DNA of 64,000 nucleotides from an uncultured Alphaproteobacteria bacterium (GTDB taxonomy: Bacteria > Pseudomonadota > Alphaproteobacteria > Rhizobiales > Xanthobacteraceae), in the NCBI GenBank assembly GCA_963828475.1, contig CAWHFN010000012.1, forward strand, positions 25,439 to 89,438, read 5' to 3'. The notes below the pieces were generated by a model that was not told where the DNA came from, ran no database searches, and saw only the letters and a list, made by a program, of their open reading frames with translations. Of this stretch, positions 24,917 to 31,659 are shown piece after piece; position 1 is the first letter of the stretch, and the number at the start of each line of letters is the position of its first letter. The position numbers and the translations under genes are program-made.

Positions 24917-25551
24917 TTACCACCTCAGGATACGCCTGCCGGCGAAATAGCCGGCCAGCACCACGGAGCCGATGGCGAGTGGATACCAGGTGATGACGAA
25001 CAACGGACTGTCGTCGAAGCAGTTCGCCGCATAGAATACGGCTGCAAGGCTGCCCGCAGCAAGACCAGCCGCCGCGCCGGCCAATCCCGGATTTGCCGGC
25101 GCACCGCTTTTCAGCGCCATGATGAAGAGCGCGAGCGGACCGCTGGCGAGCAGCGGGATCAATGTCATGCAGTTCGGGGCGTTGCTGCCGACCAGGCGGA
25201 CCGACCAGTCCGATCGCGATGTCGTCAGCAATTCGGCAGCGACGCCGGCGGCAAGCAGCATCAACGGAACGAGCAGCAATCTGGCCCACCAGCCCCGTTC
25301 GAATACCGGCCCGATGCTTCGGTACAATGCGGCCAGAGATACCGCAGCGAGCGGCACGACGACCGCAAATTTGAACAGGAAGCGAACGGTGCGCAGCGCG
25401 GCGTCGATGTCGTCGCGGAAGCCGATCCTGGAGAAGAAAAAATCGCAACAACGGCGATGGCCGGCACGAAGGCCGCCAAGAACGTCAGCCACGGTTTTCG
25501 TCCGACGACCCGGTCGGCAACCAGCGCCTGAATGAAATCTTCCGTTGTCAT
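24917..25551 (-). CDS. NrsF/OsrA-like (DUF1109) anti-sigma membrane protein; -1 frameshift in an A6 run near 25437-25442
   Basis: MTTEDFIQAL start, FLFKF, NCMTLIPLLASGP, GAPANPGLAGA and NCFDDSPLFVITWY motifs; 635 nt, one short of 212 codons. Confidence 0.75.
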
Positions 25552-25628
25552 CGCAAGATATCCCTGCAGAGCCTGCAAGCGGCCTTCGCAGTGCCGACGA
25601 GGCTGCGCCCGATAGTCCCGTCCACTAC

Positions 25629-25654
25629 TTCGCGCGGACCTCGCCGAATGTTAC
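25629..25654 (-). promoter_or_regulatory. SigF/EcfF-type ECF promoter (GTAACA-N16-CGAA)
   Basis: Exact spacing on the minus strand, 78 nt upstream of the DUF1109 gene; matches the GTAAC-N16-CGAA consensus recalled for Caulobacter SigF and B. japonicum EcfF. Confidence 0.65.
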
Positions 25655-25701: not shown

Positions 25702-26238
25702 TCAGGGCCTCGGGGCGAGTTGCTCCAGCGTTTTGCGCACCTGATCGTGGTGCCTCCGTCGCGCGATCCATTCCTCCAGCGACAGCTTGCCGGGTCCACC
25801 CAACGCCAGCGCCACCAGCCCAGCCAGATAAAGCAGCAGGATTTCGTAGCCGACCGACCCGAATCTGATTCCGGTTTCGGTGACTTCCGCGAGCTTCACC
25901 GAGAAGAACCCGTATGGCAGGTGGACCGTAACGAGCGCCGTCAGCAGAACGCCCGCCATCGGTATGCTGACCCACGGGATCAATACGCCAAGCATCACCG
26001 CCGCGCCCCCGATCAGTTCCGTCAGCGTCGCCGCCCATGCCGCCAACTCGGGCGCGGGGACGCCGAGCGTGTGCAGAACGACCGCGAAAGTCTCCGGGCC
26101 ACGCGAGAACTTGGCATAGCCATGGGCCATGAAGCCGTAGCCGACCGCAAGGCGGATCGGCAGCGGCGCCCAGGCGGCAAGCGCGGGCATCAATGACGTC
26201 GAGGCTTTCTCGGAAGGCGGGCTTGGAATTTTCATCAT
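25702..26238 (-). CDS. DoxX family membrane protein
   Basis: RLAVGYGFMAHGYAK, ELIGGAAVMLG, GYEILL and GPGKLSLE motifs; start 26238. Confidence 0.85.
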   Translation of the reverse strand: MMKIPSPPSEKASTSLMPALAAWAPLPIRLAVGYGFMAHGYAKFSRGPETFAVVLHTLGVPAPELAAWAATLTELIGGAAVMLGVLIPWVSIPMAGVLLTALVTVHLPYGFFSVKLAEVTETGIRFGSVGYEILLLYLAGLVALALGGPGKLSLEEWIARRRHHDQVRKTLEQLAPRP

Positions 26239-26286
26239 TTCTATTCCGATTGTTGGTTGACGGTCATCGCGCATCAAGGCGCGCCT

Positions 26287-26303
26287 CCTTAAGCCAGCCT
26301 TAA
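26287..26303. promoter_or_regulatory. OmpR-family tandem box CCTTAAGCCAGCCTTAA, copy upstream of doxX
   Basis: Identical to 29583-29599; 11-bp periodic direct repeat. Confidence 0.7.
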
Positions 26304-26339
26304 ATCGCGACGGCGCGGGCATCACCCGATCGATCACGC

Positions 26340-27005
26340 TCAGAGAACCACGACCTTGGCGCCGAGCGGAACGCGGGCATAGAGATCGATGACGTCCTGG
26401 TTCATCATGCGGATGCAGCCGGAGGAAACCGCCTTGCCGATGCTGTCGGGCTCGGTCGTGCCATGGATCCGGTAGCGCGTGTCCTGCCCGTTCCTGAACA
26501 GGTAGAGCGCCCTGGCGCCGAGCGGATTTCCCGCGCCGCCGTCCATGCCGCCGGCCCACTTCGCGTAGCGTTTCGGCTCGCGCGCGATCATGGCCGGCGT
26601 CGGCGTCCAATGCGGCCATTCCTTCTTCTCCTGCACCGTGCCCGTGCCCGCAAAGGCCAGCCCTTCGCGGCCGACGCCGACGCCGTAACGGATGGCCTTG
26701 CCGCCTTTCTGGACCAGATAGAGAAAGCGCTTGTGGGGGTCGACCACGACGGTGCCAGGCGGGTTCGTCGAGCGATAGTCGACGATCTGCTTGAGGTATT
26801 GAGGATCGACATGCGATGTGTCGACGGCGTCCACCGCAAATTTCTCGGCCGCGCGCGCGGCGTAATGCGCGGTCACCGGCGACGGAACGCCTGAAAATTC
26901 GGAGTTTCGTAGCCCGTCGCCGGTGACCGCGCATCCGGCAAGGGCGAGCGACAGCAGCAATGCGGCGAGCCGCCGGCGTGCCTGTCGAGCGAACAGGTTC
27001 ATCAT
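26340..27005 (-). CDS. L,D-transpeptidase (YkuD family) lipoprotein
   Basis: LAGC lipobox, NPLGARALYL, YRIHGT…SSGCIRM. Confidence 0.9.
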   Translation of the reverse strand: MMNLFARQARRRLAALLLSLALAGCAVTGDGLRNSEFSGVPSPVTAHYAARAAEKFAVDAVDTSHVDPQYLKQIVDYRSTNPPGTVVVDPHKRFLYLVQKGGKAIRYGVGVGREGLAFAGTGTVQEKKEWPHWTPTPAMIAREPKRYAKWAGGMDGGAGNPLGARALYLFRNGQDTRYRIHGTTEPDSIGKAVSSGCIRMMNQDVIDLYARVPLGAKVVVL

Positions 27006-27041
27006 GATTTCGGTATCCGGATTAGGTTTGTGCAGCCTGGA

Positions 27042-27686
27042 CTATTTGGTCGTCTTCGCCCGCGCCCGCGCATCCGCCACGACCTTGATGAAGCCGTCAT
27101 AGTTGAGCGCCTGGTTGACCTTGTAGGCGCCGACCAGGAAGCCGGGAGTGCCTTGCAGGCCGATCGCGTCGGCAATGCTCAGGTTGCGCTTGATCAGGCG
27201 CAGGATGTCATCGGCGTGCGCCGCGATATCGGCGTCGAGCCGCGGCTGGTCGACGCCGGTCTTTCGGACCGCCTCCAGCATCTGCTCCCGGGAGATGCCG
27301 TAGCCCGGGATATCCATCAGCGCATGGTGAACCGGCAGATATTGGTCCTGATATTTCGCACCCAGCGCCAGCCGGGCGCCGACGATCGAGGTCTCGGCCA
27401 GGATCGGCCAGTCCTTGTAGACGAGGCGGATATTGCCGTCGGCCTTGACGATCTTTTCAAGGCTCTTTGCCGCCATCTTGCAGTACGGGCAGTTGTAGTC
27501 GAAGAAATCGACAACGGTGAGATCGCCATCGGGATTTCCAGCCACCGGCGCGTCCGGATCGTTCAGGATCATGTCGTGCGTGATGTGATTGTCGTCAGCG
27601 CGCGCCTGTCCTGGAATGACGAGTACGGCGGACATCGCCGCCAAGCGCAGGAATCCGGCGCGAGATATCGGATCGAGCATGTTCAT
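27042..27686 (-). CDS. DsbA-family (Com1/ScsC-like) thioredoxin-fold oxidoreductase
   Basis: FFDYNCPYC active site, YKDWPIL and GTPGF cis-Pro loop; export signal; RBS GGAG. Confidence 0.85.
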   Translation of the reverse strand: MNMLDPISRAGFLRLAAMSAVLVIPGQARADDNHITHDMILNDPDAPVAGNPDGDLTVVDFFDYNCPYCKMAAKSLEKIVKADGNIRLVYKDWPILAETSIVGARLALGAKYQDQYLPVHHALMDIPGYGISREQMLEAVRKTGVDQPRLDADIAAHADDILRLIKRNLSIADAIGLQGTPGFLVGAYKVNQALNYDGFIKVVADARARAKTTK

Positions 27687-27701
27687 TTCTCCTTGAAGGG
27701 G

Positions 27702-29537
27702 TTAGACGCGTGAGGCCTTGATGCGTGAGACCTTGGCGATCTTGCCGAGGAACCCATCGACGCCGATGTCGCCCACGACGCGCGCCTCGGCGATCTCGGT
27801 TCCGTCGGGATTGAGGAAGACGATCGTCGGCGGCCCGACCACCGCGAAACGCTGCATCAGATTTTTGCTCGACAGGTCGAAATGGGTGAGGTCGGCGCGA
27901 ATGAGCAGCATGCCGCGAAGCCGCTGCTGCACCTCGTCGCGGGCAAAGATGTTTTGCTCCATGAGCCGGCATTCGGTGCACCAGTCGGCCGAAAAATCGA
28001 CCATGATGGCCGTGCCCTGCTTGCGGCCGAGGTCGATCGCCTTGTCGAGTTCGGCTTCATTGGACACGACCTGGAAACCGCCGGCGCGGGCGTCCGGGGC
28101 CGAGGCGACCAGGCCGGCGGAAATCAGGGGCCGCAGCGGCCCATAGTCGGAGAGCGCGGCTCCGATGACGAGGACACAACCGTAAAACAGCGCCAGCACG
28201 CCGGAGGCGGCTCTCGCAAGGTTGGCCGGCCGCCACCGCGGCTCCTCAAACAGCGAGGGAACATCGAGGTAGAGGCCGACTGCGATACACAATCCGCCCG
28301 ATGCGGTCGCGGTTAGCGCGACCGGCAAAACGCGCGAAGCCATCCAGATCGCCAGCGCGACGAAGATGAAGCCGAAAATATGCTTCACACGCAACAGCCA
28401 TGCACCCGAGCGCGGCAGTATCCGTGTGCCGAGCACGCCGAACGCGATCAGCGGAAGCCCCATGCCGAGCCCGAGCGAGAACAGCGCCAGCGAACCGCGC
28501 AGCACATCGCCGGTTTGCGCCACATACACCAGCGCCGCGGCGAGTGGCGGCGTCACGCATGGACCGACAATCAGCGCCGATCCAAAGCCCATAAGTGCGG
28601 CGCCGCCGATCGACCCTTTGCTTCCGGCTGCCGCCGTCAGCCTCGCGGTCCAGGATTGCGGCAACTGCAATTCGTAAAGACCAAACATCGATAGCCCGAG
28701 GGCGACAAATGCCGCACTCATGGCCAGCACAGCCGGCGGCGTCTGCAGCGATGCCTGCAGATTTTCGCCGGACCAGGCAACGAAGATTCCAAGCGTGCCG
28801 TACGCTGTCGCCATCGCCAGAACGTAGGACACGGAGAGCACGAAACTGCGCGGCACGGATATACGGCCACCGGCGCGTGCGAGCATTCCCGACAGAATCG
28901 GAATCATCGGAAACACGCAGGGCGTCAGCGACAACAGCAGTCCGAATCCCAAGAATGCCAGCACCGTCGAAGCAAGGCTGCCGCCGAGCGTGCCGGCCTC
29001 GGTTTCGAGGCCGCCCGACGACGAAGGCGTCCAGGTCGGAACGTCGGGATTATCCTCGTTGCCGCCATGGGTCGGCGGGGGCATCGTCGCGCTTCCCGCC
29101 TGCGCGTCCTCGATCAGCAATGTCGCGAGGTCGATAGCCTTCGAGATTGGCGGGTAGCAGATCGAATTTTCAGCGCAGCCCTGATAGGTGACGACGATGC
29201 GACCCTTCTCCGGCAGCAATTCCGCCGGTACCGTCGCGATGCCCGTGCCGTGATAGACTTCGGTCAGACCGAAATTCGGATCGTCTTTGGGGTCGCCCTT
29301 TTCCGCCGCGATCCTGATGCGCTGGCCAGCGAGGGTGACGGCAATCCGGTCACGATAGAGGTAGTGGCCGGGGGCGATCGACCAGGTCAGTTCGATCCCC
29401 TCCTCCTCATCCAGTTGCGCGCGGAGCTGGAAGGCCTGATCCGCCGGCATCGGCGTCGCCGCCCAAACGGAACCGGCGGCAGCCATCACAAGCCTCAGCA
29501 GCAACGTAACGAAACCGGCAATGCGAACGTAGGGCAT
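27702..29537 (-). CDS. dsbD: Thiol:disulfide interchange protein DsbD
   Basis: Three redox modules: QGCAENSICYPP, LTPCVFPM/GPCVTPP and ADWCTEC; start ATG 29537 after AGAAGG. Confidence 0.92.
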   Translation of the reverse strand: MPYVRIAGFVTLLLRLVMAAAGSVWAATPMPADQAFQLRAQLDEEEGIELTWSIAPGHYLYRDRIAVTLAGQRIRIAAEKGDPKDDPNFGLTEVYHGTGIATVPAELLPEKGRIVVTYQGCAENSICYPPISKAIDLATLLIEDAQAGSATMPPPTHGGNEDNPDVPTWTPSSSGGLETEAGTLGGSLASTVLAFLGFGLLLSLTPCVFPMIPILSGMLARAGGRISVPRSFVLSVSYVLAMATAYGTLGIFVAWSGENLQASLQTPPAVLAMSAAFVALGLSMFGLYELQLPQSWTARLTAAAGSKGSIGGAALMGFGSALIVGPCVTPPLAAALVYVAQTGDVLRGSLALFSLGLGMGLPLIAFGVLGTRILPRSGAWLLRVKHIFGFIFVALAIWMASRVLPVALTATASGGLCIAVGLYLDVPSLFEEPRWRPANLARAASGVLALFYGCVLVIGAALSDYGPLRPLISAGLVASAPDARAGGFQVVSNEAELDKAIDLGRKQGTAIMVDFSADWCTECRLMEQNIFARDEVQQRLRGMLLIRADLTHFDLSSKNLMQRFAVVGPPTIVFLNPDGTEIAEARVVGDIGVDGFLGKIAKVSRIKASRV

Positions 29538-29582
29538 GGGGTACCTTCTGTGAACGATCCGGCGGCCCATGTGGCCTTGCGA

Positions 29583-29599
29583 CCTTAAGCCAGCCTTAA
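29583..29599. promoter_or_regulatory. OmpR-family tandem box CCTTAAGCCAGCCTTAA in the dsbD/response regulator divergent promoter
   Basis: CTTAAG-N5-CTTAAG; identical to 26287-26303. Confidence 0.75.
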
Positions 29600-29641: not shown

Positions 29642-30307
29642 ATGCGGATTTTGGTTGTTGAAGATGACCCGGTGCTCTCGGACGGATTGAAGGTCGGGCT
29701 CGGGCTATACGGCGCGACGCTCGACATCGTCGCCAGTTGCGCCGACGGTCACGCGGCGCTTGCGGCGGACGAATTCGACGCACTGGTTCTCGATCTGATG
29801 CTGCCGGACGGGTCTGGCCTCGATCTGTTGGCCGCGCTGCGCTCGCGCGGCGACCGCACTCCGGTGCTGCTGTTGACCGCGCTCGACGAAGTCGCTGACC
29901 GCATCAGGGGATTGGATGCCGGGGCGGACGACTATCTCGGCAAACCCTTCGATCTGGAGGAGCTTGCCGCCCGTGTCCGTGCCATCAGCCGGCGGAATGA
30001 GGGCCGCGCCTCGCCCCAGGCGTCCTACAATGGTGTGACGCTCAACCTCGCCCGACTGACCGTTACCGTCAGTGGAACATGCATCGGTCTTTCCCGCCGC
30101 GAGTTCGCCGTTCTCGCAGCGCTGATGGACCGGCCAGGCGCGGTTTTGTCCAAGAGCGACCTGGAAGCAAAGCTCTACGGCTGGCAGGAAGAAGTCGAAA
30201 GCAATACCGTCGAAGTCCACGTCCATAAATTGCGCACGAAAATCGGACGGACGAAGATCGAAACCCTGCGCGGGATCGGGTACCGGATGAGGCCCGTCGC
30301 CCCATGA
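29642..30307 (+). CDS. OmpR/PmrA/QseB-family response regulator (DsbR-like)
   Basis: LVVEDD, LDLMLPD, GADDYLGKPF and winged-helix VEVHVHKLRTK…TLRGIGY. Confidence 0.92.
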   Translation: MRILVVEDDPVLSDGLKVGLGLYGATLDIVASCADGHAALAADEFDALVLDLMLPDGSGLDLLAALRSRGDRTPVLLLTALDEVADRIRGLDAGADDYLGKPFDLEELAARVRAISRRNEGRASPQASYNGVTLNLARLTVTVSGTCIGLSRREFAVLAALMDRPGAVLSKSDLEAKLYGWQEEVESNTVEVHVHKLRTKIGRTKIETLRGIGYRMRPVAP

Positions 30308-31659
30308 ATTCGCTGAGAAGAAAACTCTTCCTGATCCTTGTCGCGGCCACCAGCCTGATATGGCTCGCCGCGACCTGCTGGATTTACGTCGGCGCCAGGC
30401 GGGAAGTCGAAAGCGTGCTGGACGCAAGACTGCAGGAAGCGGCGCGCATGGTGCTGTCGCTCGCGGGCAACGGCGTCGGTACCGCACAAAAGGGAGCAGA
30501 CCCCGGACAGGCTCCGGAGATCCTGAGTTACGAGCGACAGCTTTCCTGCCAGATATGGTCACTCGACGGCCGGCTGGTGGCGCGCTCCAGTGGAGCGCCG
30601 AACGAAAGCCTGAGCGACAGGAGAGCGGGCTTCTCCGAACGCCTCATCAACGGAGAGACGTGGCGCGTCTTTACGGCGGAAGACGGCGCCAAGGGCGTTC
30701 GCGTTCTGGTGGGAGACCGGCTCGGCCTGCGCGACCATTTCGTCGCGGAAATCATGAAGGGCATTCTCGCGCCGATGGCTCTTACGGTCCCATTGCTCGG
30801 ATTCCTGATCTGGGCAAGCCTCAATCGCGGGCTACGTCCGTTGCGGGGGCTCGCCGAAGAACTGGCGCGCAGAAGCGCCGACGACATGCGCCCCGTCGAG
30901 ACTGGCAAAATACCAACGGAAATCCGGCCGGTCATCGACTCGCTCAATTCCCTTTTCGCCAGGGTCCAGGATGCGTTGCGGCACGAGCGGGATCTCACCG
31001 CTTTCGCCGCACATGAGTTGCGGACGCCGCTGGCAGGATTGCGGACCCAGGCCCAGGTCGCAATGGCGGCCCGTGACGAGACAACGCGCGCCACGGCGCT
31101 CCGTCAAATCCTTGTCGGCGTCGATCGTACCACCCGCCTCGTTCGCCAGTTGCTCGCCATCGCGAAACTCGATTCGGCGCCGGAGACGATCCGGGCGAAC
31201 CAGATCAGCATCGGGGGCGTGATCGAAGAGGTCATCGACGCGCTGCCACTGTCGGACCGGGCCGTCCCCGTTACCGTCGATCCGGCCCTGACGGGCACCA
31301 TGGTTACGGCCAACCGGGAATTCCTTCTGCTGGCGGTTCGCAACCTGCATGAGAATGCCGCACGTCACATGTCGCAGCCGGGCGCCATTCGATGGTCGAT
31401 GGAGAAGGAATCCGATGCGCTTGCCGTTTATGTCGACGATGAGGGCCCGGGCATACCGCAGGAAGAGATTGCGCTGGTTACGAACCGTTTTTTCCGCGGC
31501 CGCAACAAGAGCCCGCTTGGGAGCGGCCTCGGACTATCAATTGTCGAGCTCGCCCTGCGCGCCAGCGGCGCACGGCTGATCCTCCAGAACAGAAGAGATG
31601 GGACTGGCCTGCGGGCGCAAATCGTATGGAGGCTCACGCCGGACGGCGTGACGCGGTGA
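30304..31659 (+). CDS. QseC-family sensor histidine kinase (DsbS-like)
   Basis: ATGA overlap with the regulator; periplasmic YERQLSCQIW (Cys82), HAMP, AAHELRTPL H-box, DEGPG and GSGLGL. Confidence 0.9.
   Translation: MNSLRRKLFLILVAATSLIWLAATCWIYVGARREVESVLDARLQEAARMVLSLAGNGVGTAQKGADPGQAPEILSYERQLSCQIWSLDGRLVARSSGAPNESLSDRRAGFSERLINGETWRVFTAEDGAKGVRVLVGDRLGLRDHFVAEIMKGILAPMALTVPLLGFLIWASLNRGLRPLRGLAEELARRSADDMRPVETGKIPTEIRPVIDSLNSLFARVQDALRHERDLTAFAAHELRTPLAGLRTQAQVAMAARDETTRATALRQILVGVDRTTRLVRQLLAIAKLDSAPETIRANQISIGGVIEEVIDALPLSDRAVPVTVDPALTGTMVTANREFLLLAVRNLHENAARHMSQPGAIRWSMEKESDALAVYVDDEGPGIPQEEIALVTNRFFRGRNKSPLGSGLGLSIVELALRASGARLILQNRRDGTGLRAQIVWRLTPDGVTR

What the first reader, a model, noticed from the sequence alone, without database searches (positions are those of the whole stretch)
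26287..29599. Identical 17-bp tandem box at two promoters defines the island's regulon
CCTTAAGCCAGCCTTAA occurs at 26287-26303 and 29583-29599, in the same orientation, 49 and 46 nt upstream of the doxX and dsbD starts. It is an 11-bp periodic direct repeat (CTTAAG-N5-CTTAA), the architecture bound by OmpR/PmrA-family dimers, and fits the TTA-N8-TTAA motif I recall for DsbR. It implies doxX has its own regulator-dependent promoter and that the TCS may autoregulate.
Basis: partly seen in the sequence, partly recalled or inferred. Interest (0 to 1): 0.68.

Follow-up and report, generated by a model that had tools for sequence, protein, structure and literature searches.

The report
Response-regulator box before dsbD and doxX
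The repeated 17-base box is real and is most likely the docking site of the neighbouring DsbR/PmrA-type response regulator, switching on a small envelope thiol- and copper-stress gene set (dsbD, a DsbG-like protein, an L,D-transpeptidase and, from its own promoter, doxX); the type of system is already known from Pseudomonas.

Summary
Observation confirmed. CCTTAAGCCAGCCTTAA lies at 26287-26303 and 29583-29599. These are its only copies in the 6.46-Mb genome, even allowing 2 mismatches. Both are intergenic and in the same orientation, 48 and 45 nt before the doxX and dsbD start codons.

On the coding strand the box reads (C/T)TTAAG-N5-CTTAAG. That is a canonical pmra-box and fits the TTAA-N7-TTAA DsbR consensus from P. 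aeruginosa ChIP-seq.

The adjacent regulator is the only PmrA-type one in the genome. It keeps PmrA's base-contact residues. Its kinase has the DsbS hallmarks (Cys82, a Cys next to TM1, the H-box).

Comparative evidence is strong:
- The box is the only invariant block in the dsbR-dsbD spacer of 7 genomes.
- It co-occurs strictly with the regulator gene.
- doxX and ldt carry their own box when they sit elsewhere in other genomes.

A matrix trained on other genomes ranks the two window sites first and second genome-wide (35.8 and 26.1 bits; next 18.8).

The one exception is the proposed remote target: no strong remote site and no DsbB-family gene were found. Binding, transcription starts and the inducing signal remain inferred. 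This is a new member of a known kind, with doxX and ldt as modest additions to the regulon.

The parts
29583..29599 (-). Box 2. The operator in the divergent dsbD / regulator spacer, reading CTTAAGGCTGGCTTAAGG toward dsbD.
   Evidence: Exact match. It is the only invariant block in the alignment of 7 orthologous spacers. It scores 35.8 bits with a matrix trained on other genomes, the top hit in the genome.
26287..26303 (-). Box 1. An internal operator/promoter between the ldt stop codon and the doxX start, reading TTTAAGGCTGGCTTAAGG toward doxX.
   Evidence: Exact match. It scores 26.1 bits, the second-best site in the genome. No terminator and no sigma-70 consensus promoter lie nearby. doxX orthologues elsewhere carry their own box.
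27702..29537 (-). dsbD, a thiol:disulfide reductase that imports electrons into the periplasm. First gene of the operon.
   Evidence: Pfam DsbD_N, DsbD_TM and thioredoxin domains. NCBIfam DsbD 501.6 bits, above the 330 cut-off.
27042..27686 (-). Periplasmic DsbA-fold protein with a CPYC active site (DsbG/ScsC-like).
   Evidence: Pfam Thioredoxin_4 and DSBA. CPYC is visible in the translation.
26340..27005 (-). L,D-transpeptidase (YkuD family) with a catalytic cysteine.
   Evidence: Pfam YkuD, E = 7e-24. SGCIRM motif in the translation.
25702..26238 (-). doxX, a DoxX-family membrane protein with no cysteine.
   Evidence: Pfam DoxX, E = 1.2e-15. 54% identical to the B. elkanii DoxX that has its own box.
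29642..30307 (+). Response regulator of the PmrA/BasR/QseB subfamily (DsbR-like), with Asp51.
   Evidence: Pfam and NCBIfam. Best solved relatives are BasR/PmrA 8jo2 and 4s04, with S187, N188, V192, H195 at PmrA's base-contact positions. It is the only such recognition helix in the genome.
30304..31659 (+). Sensor histidine kinase (DsbS-like) with Cys25, Cys82, His237 and Thr241.
   Evidence: Pfam 2CSK_N, HisKA and HATPase_c. Cysteine positions. The motif QLSCQ(I/V/L)W(S/A)(L/F) containing Cys82 is kept in 21 orthologues.

Best explanation
The two boxes are operators for the adjacent two-component regulator, a DsbR-like member of the PmrA/BasR subfamily.

Proposed mechanism (inferred):
- When the DsbS-like kinase senses periplasmic copper or thiol stress through its Cys82-containing sensor domain, the phosphorylated regulator accumulates.
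- It binds as a head-to-tail dimer to the two (C/T)TTAAG hexamers, which are 11 bp apart.
- The bound box takes the place of the -35 element and recruits sigma-70 RNA polymerase, as in class II activation by PmrA and PhoB.
- Box 2 drives dsbD, the DsbG-like gene and ldt, probably reading through into doxX.
- Box 1 is an internal promoter that gives doxX its own regulator-dependent transcription.
- By analogy with the pmra-box position (about -37 to -21), transcription would start near 29563 for dsbD and near 26267 for doxX. That leaves leaders of about 26 and 29 nt.
- Box 2 must also overlap the promoter of the regulator gene itself, 42 nt away, so feedback on the two-component system is likely.

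Shown here: the sequences, their uniqueness, their conservation, their co-occurrence with the regulator, and the regulator's family and contact residues.

Inferred: binding, activation, transcription starts and the inducing signal.
For: Uniqueness:
- There are 2 sites in 6.46 Mb even at up to 2 mismatches.
- A matrix trained only on sites from other genomes scores them 35.8 and 26.1 bits; the next best is 18.8, and the next hits lie in coding or unrelated DNA.

Motif identity:
- The P. aeruginosa DsbR consensus is TTAA-N7-TTAA, with EMSA, footprint and ChIP-seq support.
- The pmra-box is two XTTAAY hexamers 5 nt apart that overlap the -35 element.

Regulator:
- Best structural relatives are BasR/PmrA (E = 6e-49). 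Residues S187, N188, V192, H195 stand where PmrA has T187, N188, V192, H195, which contact the TAA bases.
- It is the only PmrA-type recognition helix among the 10 OmpR-family regulators of the genome.

Kinase:
- Cys25, Cys82, His237 and Thr241 here, against Cys28, Cys82, His235 and Ser239 in DsbS.
- The Cys82 motif is kept in 21 orthologues.

Phylogenetic footprint:
- CTTAAGGCTGnCTTAAG is the only invariant block in 7 orthologous spacers that average 54% identity.

Co-occurrence:
- Among 80 DsbD loci: regulator with box 6, neither 72, regulator without box 0. Two have box-like AT-rich sequences and no regulator.
- L006 has dsbD and the dsbA-like gene but no regulator and no box.
- Among 25 genomes of the same genus, only the 2 with this DsbD have the box.
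- Across 401 genomes of the order there are 33 matches, against 6 for the reversed pattern. 16 of the 30 fetched loci sit next to the regulator or to dsbD, the dsbA-like gene, ldt or doxX.

Separate boxes on relocated members:
- doxX in B. elkanii (three copies), Bradyrhizobium sp. SYSU and L126.
- ldt in Pseudochrobactrum (unlinked), in L120, and internally in G401.

Promoter context:
- No sigma-70 consensus promoter lies in the island, as expected for activator-dependent promoters.
- No terminator lies between ldt and doxX.
Against: - There is no experimental or transcript evidence for this organism.
- No convincing -10 hexamer is conserved downstream of the boxes.
- The regulator scores below NCBIfam's PmrA and QseB equivalog cut-offs (220.8 against 330).
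- It could not be compared directly with P. aeruginosa PA2479/PA2480, so orthology to DsbRS rests on shared features.
- The core TTAA-N7-TTAA is also the CtrA core, which is common in this genome.
- In two relatives (L118, L123) the box points toward the regulator gene rather than the dsb gene, so the orientation rule is not absolute.
Confidence: 0.8

Rival explanations
1. The boxes are CtrA sites. CtrA is the alphaproteobacterial cell-cycle regulator, whose full site is TTAA-N7-TTAAC. The island would then be under cell-cycle control rather than control by its own regulator.
For: The TTAA-N7-TTAA core is shared. That spacing is enriched genome-wide (47 sites against 3-15 for other spacings), mostly as TTAAC-N5-GTTAAC, which is CtrA-like. 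A CtrA-like regulator is present.
Against: Both boxes read TTAAG, not TTAAC. The conserved extension GGCTGnC...GG is absent from the CtrA-like sites. The extended box follows the presence of the island's own regulator across genomes and is absent where that regulator is absent. The independently trained matrix separates the two sites from all CtrA-like sites by more than 7 bits.
Confidence: 0.04
2. Box 2 is the working operator, but box 1 is not a promoter. It would be either a leftover carried along when doxX was moved in behind ldt, or a second operator acting on the operon by roadblock or looping. doxX would be expressed by read-through only.
For: There is no terminator between ldt and doxX, so read-through is likely anyway. 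In B. elkanii doxX lies on the other side of the two-component genes, so a rearrangement did occur. The first hexamer of box 1 is TTTAAG and it scores lower (26.1 against 35.8 bits).
Against: A non-functional leftover would not stay identical over all 17 nt while both flanks diverged completely. The distance to the start codon (48 nt) and the orientation match box 2 and the orthologous sites. Internal or separate boxes before doxX or ldt recur independently in at least 6 other genomes.
Confidence: 0.1
3. The match is a chance recurrence of a 17-mer with no function.
For: Some exact 17-mer pair is expected by chance in roughly one 64-kb window in five (own estimate).
Against: The sequence is conserved across at least 15 genera at the same promoter position. 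The two sites are the top two of about 13 million genome positions for a matrix trained without them.
Confidence: 0.01

Closest known systems
DsbRS-dsbDEG copper-responsive module of Pseudomonas aeruginosa (bioRxiv 10.1101/2020.08.17.255257)
   Same: - A two-component operon transcribed divergently from a dsbD-first operon.
- An OmpR-family regulator with Asp51.
- A kinase with one Cys next to TM1 and Cys82 in the periplasmic domain, and an H-box His near residue 235.
- A TTAA-N7-TTAA operator in the spacer.
That paper already predicted such sites upstream of dsbD in 14 species, including a Rhizobium sp.
   Different: - There is one box in the spacer here, not two protected regions.
- The operon is dsbD, a DsbA-fold CPYC protein and ldt, rather than dsbD-dsbE-dsbG.
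- A second box gives doxX its own promoter. doxX and ldt are not mentioned in that paper.
- There is no dsbB target; no DsbB-family gene was detected.
- The +4 phosphatase residue is Thr rather than Ser.
- Copper response is untested here.
pmra-box and PmrA/BasR of Klebsiella, Salmonella and E. coli (PDB 4S04/4S05, 8JO2; PMC10570014, PMC4660055)
   Same: - Two XTTAAY hexamers separated by 5 nt.
- A regulator about 45% identical over its full length.
- Base-contact residues N188, V192 and H195 identical, and T187 replaced by S.
- By analogy, the box should replace the -35 element.
   Different: - It is not a PmrA orthologue (NCBIfam 220.8 bits against a 330 cut-off).
- Both hexamers at box 2 are the palindromic CTTAAG.
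- The targets are envelope thiol-redox genes, not lipopolysaccharide-modification genes.
- The sensor is DsbS-like, not PmrB-like.
DsbD-DsbG protection of L,D-transpeptidases (Depuydt et al. 2009, from my own knowledge) and copper inhibition of L,D-transpeptidases (Peters et al. 2018, cited in PMC8224329)
   Same: The operon encodes in order the electron importer (DsbD), a CPYC DsbG/ScsC-like protein, and a single-cysteine L,D-transpeptidase. That is the known reductive cascade together with its substrate class.
   Different: Here all three are co-transcribed under one stress-responsive operator. In E. coli the genes are dispersed and not known to share a regulator.
SigF-NrsF copper regulon with DoxX (BufD1) in Caulobacter (PMC11626156, PMC8224329)
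   Same: A DoxX-family gene is induced as part of a copper-stress regulon, and an NrsF-family gene lies next to it.
   Different: Control there is by an ECF sigma factor, and doxX is part of the bufferin gene cluster. Here doxX carries a response-regulator box and no MNIO or DUF2063 genes are present.

Membership tests
DsbRS-dsbD module (P. aeruginosa type) | Two-component operon transcribed divergently from an operon that starts with dsbD | tested here: met
   The regulator starts at 29642 (+) and dsbD at 29537 (-), with a 104-bp spacer. The same layout is found in L001-L005, L009, G016 and G401.
DsbRS-dsbD module (P. aeruginosa type) | Sensor kinase with Cys82 in the periplasmic domain, a second Cys next to TM1, an H-box His near 235 and Ser/Thr at +4 | tested here: met
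   Cys25 and Cys82 are the only cysteines. His237 and Thr241 are present. The Cys82 motif is kept in 21 orthologues. Reference values come from the paper.
DsbRS-dsbD module (P. aeruginosa type) | TTAA-N7-TTAA operator in the dsbD-dsbR spacer | tested here: met
   TTAAGCCAGCCTTAA at 29585-29599. Consensus.
DsbRS-dsbD module (P. aeruginosa type) | Direct sequence orthology to PA2479/PA2480 | not tested
   No P. aeruginosa sequence could be reached with the tools. The control genomes of the genome search gave no Pseudomonas locus.
DsbRS-dsbD module (P. aeruginosa type) | Copper-dependent activation and regulator binding to the box | not testable with these tools
   This needs EMSA or footprinting and expression assays.
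PmrA/BasR/QseB subfamily and pmra-box | Two XTTAAY hexamers separated by 5 nt | tested here: met
   CTTAAG-GCTGG-CTTAAG (box 2) and TTTAAG-GCTGG-CTTAAG (box 1) on the coding strand. Definition in PMC10570014.
PmrA/BasR/QseB subfamily and pmra-box | Recognition-helix residues that contact the TAA bases (T187, N188, V192, H195 in PmrA) | tested here: met
   A gap-free alignment to 8jo2_H gives S187, N188, V192, H195. The contact residues are named.
PmrA/BasR/QseB subfamily and pmra-box | Orthology to PmrA or QseB (NCBIfam equivalog cut-off) | tested here: not met
   PmrA 220.8 bits against 330; QseB 209.6 against 345. It belongs to the subfamily but is not an orthologue of either.
PmrA/BasR/QseB subfamily and pmra-box | Box overlaps or replaces the -35 element of a sigma-70 promoter | tested here: inconclusive
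   No -35/-10 consensus promoter is found in the region, which is consistent. The distance to the ATG allows it (45-48 nt). No transcription-start data exist and the -10 is weak.
CtrA box | TTAA-N7-TTAAC, typically TTAAC-N5-GTTAAC in this genome | tested here: not met
   The boxes read TTAAG on both strands, and their conserved extension differs from that of the CtrA-like sites.

The most novel reading that the evidence does not exclude
In Hyphomicrobiales the DsbR-type regulon has taken in DoxX as a dedicated, separately promoted member, along with the L,D-transpeptidase that the DsbD/DsbG-like pair protects.

This genome shows no DsbB or VKOR family gene. DoxX is distantly related to MauE and to the quinone-binding DoxD. 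It could therefore be the membrane, quinone-linked partner of the island's periplasmic thiol-redox proteins under copper stress.

A second unexcluded point concerns the hexamers. Because CTTAAG is palindromic, the tandem repeat can be read in both directions, so one site might serve both divergent promoters.
Probability: 0.12. Interest if true: 0.6.

Novelty: new member of a known kind. Interest (0 to 1): 0.32.

Why it matters
The result gives a clean, testable regulon for an accessory envelope-stress island in a Bradyrhizobium-like genome: two promoters, one regulator, four structural genes.

It extends the DsbRS model from Pseudomonas to Hyphomicrobiales. It also links two gene families to that regulon by comparative evidence. 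One is DoxX, whose function is still unclear even in the Caulobacter copper regulon. The other is an L,D-transpeptidase, a copper-sensitive single-cysteine enzyme.

This is incremental rather than surprising. The operator type and its conservation upstream of dsbD were already reported.

Tried and rejected
- My first doxX coordinates (25702-26236) were off-frame and gave no Pfam hit. With 25702-26238 the protein is clearly DoxX.
- TTAA-N7-TTAA alone as a regulon probe: rejected. Most of the 47 genome sites are CtrA-like, not DsbR-like.
- The next-best matrix hits (C28, C11, C14, C20) were inspected. They lie in coding DNA or beside unrelated or doubtful ORFs and were not taken as targets.
- Of the 30 order-wide exact-pattern loci, 14 have unrelated neighbours, mostly with a spacer other than CTGN. 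I treated them as chance matches or as sites of other regulators.
- A search for dsbB or VKOR as remote targets found no such gene.
- An attempt to reach P. aeruginosa DsbRS through the control genomes failed.
- No conserved -10 hexamer could be defined. CCACAT/CACATG in Bradyrhizobium, TAGTAT in Pseudochrobactrum and CTTGAT at doxX are only weak candidates.
- Duplication of a longer promoter segment was rejected, because identity ends at 17 nt.
Full report
**1. Observation**

The 17-mer CCTTAAGCCAGCCTTAA occurs exactly at 26287-26303 and 29583-29599 on the + strand. Even with 3 mismatches nothing else in the window matches, against 0.04 expected. In the whole 6.46-Mb assembly (window = C12:25439-89438) these are the only sites at up to 2 mismatches. 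The flanks are unrelated, so this is not a duplicated segment. It is the only perfect repeat of 17 nt or more in the island.

**2. Gene map**

On the minus strand:
- dsbD, 27702-29537. It has DsbD_N, DsbD_TM and thioredoxin domains, and NCBIfam DsbD scores 501.6 bits.
- A DsbA-fold protein with a CPYC active site, 27042-27686.
- A YkuD L,D-transpeptidase, 26340-27005.
- doxX, 25702-26238.

On the plus strand:
- An OmpR-family regulator, 29642-30307.
- A histidine kinase, 30304-31659.

My first doxX coordinates were off by two bases and gave no hit. The correct frame gives Pfam DoxX at E = 1.2e-15.

Box 2 sits in the 104-bp divergent spacer, 45 nt from the dsbD ATG and 42 nt from the regulator ATG. 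Box 1 sits 36 nt after the ldt stop codon and 48 nt before the doxX ATG.

The genes flanking the island are housekeeping: two Kup transporters, MotAB, TctC, an RraA-like protein, pss and psd. The island is therefore only about 7 kb and has no cop or cus genes.

**3. What the box is**

On the coding strand the boxes read CTTAAG-GCTGG-CTTAAG-G (dsbD) and TTTAAG-GCTGG-CTTAAG-G (doxX). This matches two described operators:
- The TTAA-N7-TTAA consensus found by ChIP-seq for P. aeruginosa DsbR. DsbR binds the dsbD-dsbR spacer and activates dsbDEG and dsbRS in response to copper (bioRxiv 10.1101/2020.08.17.255257).

**4. The regulator and kinase**

The closest solved relatives of the regulator are BasR/PmrA (8jo2, 4s04; E about 6e-49). 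The alignment is gap-free. It puts S187, N188, V192, H195 where PmrA has T187, N188, V192, H195, the residues that contact the TAA bases.

It falls below the NCBIfam cut-offs for PmrA and QseB. It is therefore a subfamily member, not an orthologue of either.

Among the 10 OmpR-family regulators detectable in the genome, it is the only one with this recognition helix. The nearest paralogue is 41% identical and has a different helix.

The kinase has a 2CSK_N sensor domain. Its only two cysteines are Cys25, next to TM1, and Cys82. It has His237 and Thr241. P. aeruginosa DsbS has Cys28, Cys82, His235 and Ser239, and Cys82 is needed there for copper binding. The motif around Cys82, QLSCQ(I/V/L)W(S/A)(L/F), is kept in 21 orthologous kinases that are only 49-82% identical overall.

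**5. Comparative evidence that the box is functional and belongs to this regulator**

(a) Conservation upstream of dsbD. The box TTAAGGCTGnCTTAA lies upstream of dsbD in Bradyrhizobium elkanii, Bradyrhizobium sp. SYSU, a Devosiaceae genome, Pseudochrobactrum, Martelella and Kaistia. The distance is about 60-75 nt, except about 137 nt in Pseudochrobactrum. An alignment of seven dsbR-dsbD spacers has 54% mean identity, and CTTAAGGCTGnCTTAAG is its only invariant block.

(b) Co-occurrence with the regulator among 80 DsbD-homologue loci:

| | Box upstream | No box |
|---|---|---|
| Divergent regulator present | 6 | 0 |
| No divergent regulator | 2 (AT-rich look-alikes) | 72 |

L006 has dsbD and the dsbA-like gene but no regulator and no box.

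(c) Distribution within the genus. Among 25 genomes of the same genus, only the 2 that carry this DsbD carry the box. The island is therefore accessory. A further same-genus genome drawn in the order-wide scan (G401) carries a more divergent version of the island, again with the box.

(d) Distribution across the order. In 401 genomes the exact pattern TTAAGGCTNNCTTAAG occurs 33 times, against 6 for the reversed control. Of the 30 loci fetched, 16 lie beside the regulator or beside dsbD, the dsbA-like gene, ldt or doxX. All 16 have the spacer CTG(G/A/C)C. The other 14 have unrelated neighbours and mostly other spacers.

(e) Independent matrix. A weight matrix built only from sites in other genomes scores the two window sites 35.8 and 26.1 bits. 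These are the top two of about 13 million positions, and the next is 18.8. The next hits lie in coding or unrelated DNA.

**6. Does doxX have its own promoter?**

The comparative pattern says yes.
- In B. elkanii WSM2783, doxX (54% identical) lies on the far side of the kinase gene. It has its own box 55 nt upstream. The same holds in two further copies of the island in that genome.
- In Bradyrhizobium sp. SYSU, doxX lies in the same relocated position, with TTAAGTCTGCTTTAA upstream.
- In locus L126, doxX is the first recognisable gene downstream of the box, divergent from the regulator.

The same logic applies to ldt.
- In Pseudochrobactrum it is unlinked, on another contig, and carries TTAAGACTGACTTAAG 48 nt upstream.
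- In L120 a box precedes ldt.
- In G401, of the same genus, an internal TTAAGCCCGGCTTAAG lies between the dsbA-like gene and ldt.

Genes that keep the box after moving are the signature of direct regulon members.

In the window there is no terminator between ldt and doxX, and no sigma-70 consensus promoter anywhere in the island. doxX is therefore probably transcribed both by read-through and from box 1.

**7. Mechanism (inferred)**

By analogy with PmrA and PhoB class II activation, the phosphorylated dimer binds head-to-tail on the two hexamers and substitutes for the -35 element. Taking the pmra-box position as about -37 to -21 puts the transcription starts near 29563 and 26267. That leaves leaders of roughly 26 and 29 nt, which contain the GAAGG and GGAA ribosome-binding sequences.

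The -10 candidates are weak and not conserved.

The distance from the box to the regulator's ATG is 35-55 nt in nearly all relatives. The regulator's own promoter must therefore overlap the box, and feedback is likely. In P. aeruginosa this feedback is positive; here its sign is unknown.

The biological logic fits established knowledge:
- DsbD passes electrons to DsbG-type CPYC proteins.
- Those proteins keep the single catalytic cysteine of L,D-transpeptidases reduced (Depuydt et al. 2009, from my own knowledge).
- Copper inhibits L,D-transpeptidases (Peters et al. 2018, cited in PMC8224329).

DoxX here has no cysteine and its role is unknown. In Caulobacter a DoxX gene (bufD1) is copper-induced through SigF but is dispensable for bufferin function.

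**8. Rivals**

- CtrA also recognises TTAA-N7-TTAA, and CtrA-like TTAAC-N5-GTTAAC sites explain most of the genome-wide excess of that spacing (47 sites against 3-15 for other spacings). The island boxes have TTAAG and a different conserved extension, and they track the island's own regulator.
- Box 1 as a non-promoter relic is unlikely, given its perfect identity within diverged flanks and the recurrence of independent doxX and ldt boxes.
- Chance is excluded by the conservation.

**9. Novelty**

The system is of a known kind. The DsbRS paper already predicted DsbR sites upstream of dsbD in 14 species, including a Rhizobium. It does not mention DoxX or an L,D-transpeptidase.

New here:
- Assignment of doxX and ldt to the regulon in Hyphomicrobiales.
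- The internal promoter architecture.
- The finding that in this genome the strong-site regulon is just these two promoters.
- The absence of a dsbB target, since no DsbB or VKOR gene was detected.

**10. Verdict**

This is a new member of a known kind, of modest interest.

Noticed in passing
window 26865-26885 and 26914-26934 (inside ldt, minus strand): A perfect 21-bp inverted repeat with a 28-nt loop lies in the 5' coding part of the L,D-transpeptidase gene, in the linker after the lipobox. As RNA it folds at -54.8 kcal/mol (z = -6.2). The arms are unique in the genome, so it is not a dispersed REP element. Its function is unknown.
   Followed up: partly
window 24917-25551 (minus strand): The NrsF-family gene downstream of doxX appears frameshifted at a T-run near 25441-25446. 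The N-terminus MTTEDFIQALVADR... starts at the ATG at 25551, in a different frame from the ORF 24917-25492. The B. elkanii orthologue is intact in one frame. This is either a pseudogene or a homopolymer assembly error. GTAACA-N16-CGAA, the SigF-type promoter as I recall it from Caulobacter, lies upstream at about 25626-25651. No sigma gene is adjacent, and the genome has two other NrsF loci.
   Followed up: partly
whole genome (G000): Six-frame searches found no DsbB (PF02600) or VKOR (PF07884) family gene in the 94%-complete assembly, although DsbA-fold proteins are present.
   Followed up: partly
whole genome (G000), e.g. C13:267667, C14:244158, C23:136114: TTAA is rare (2572 copies in 6.46 Mb), yet TTAA-N7-TTAA occurs 47 times against 3-15 for other spacings. 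Most are TTAAC-N5-GTTAAC, the CtrA-type box. So the bare core motif is not specific for the DsbR-like regulator in alphaproteobacteria.
   Followed up: partly
B. elkanii WSM2783: L092/L101 (C22), L096/L104 (C208), L098/L099/L100/L106 (C209): This genome carries three copies of the island, each with a doxX box and a dsbD-type box; one dsbD looks truncated. A further perfect box in L100 lies about 490 nt upstream of an ECF sigma-factor gene (L100:2007-2549).
   Followed up: partly
L097 (Pseudochrobactrum, contig C5) and L137:11230-11245 (G401, same genus as the window): An unlinked L,D-transpeptidase gene has its own one-mismatch box 48 nt upstream. In G401 an internal box lies between the dsbA-like gene and ldt. 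Internal and relocated boxes are a recurring feature of this regulon.
   Followed up: yes
L118 and L123: In two genomes the box, read as TTAAGGCTGG, points toward the regulator gene, with the dsbA-like gene divergent. These boxes are nearly symmetric (CCTTAAGG...CTTAAGG on both strands), which hints that the palindromic CTTAAG hexamers may work in both directions.
   Followed up: no
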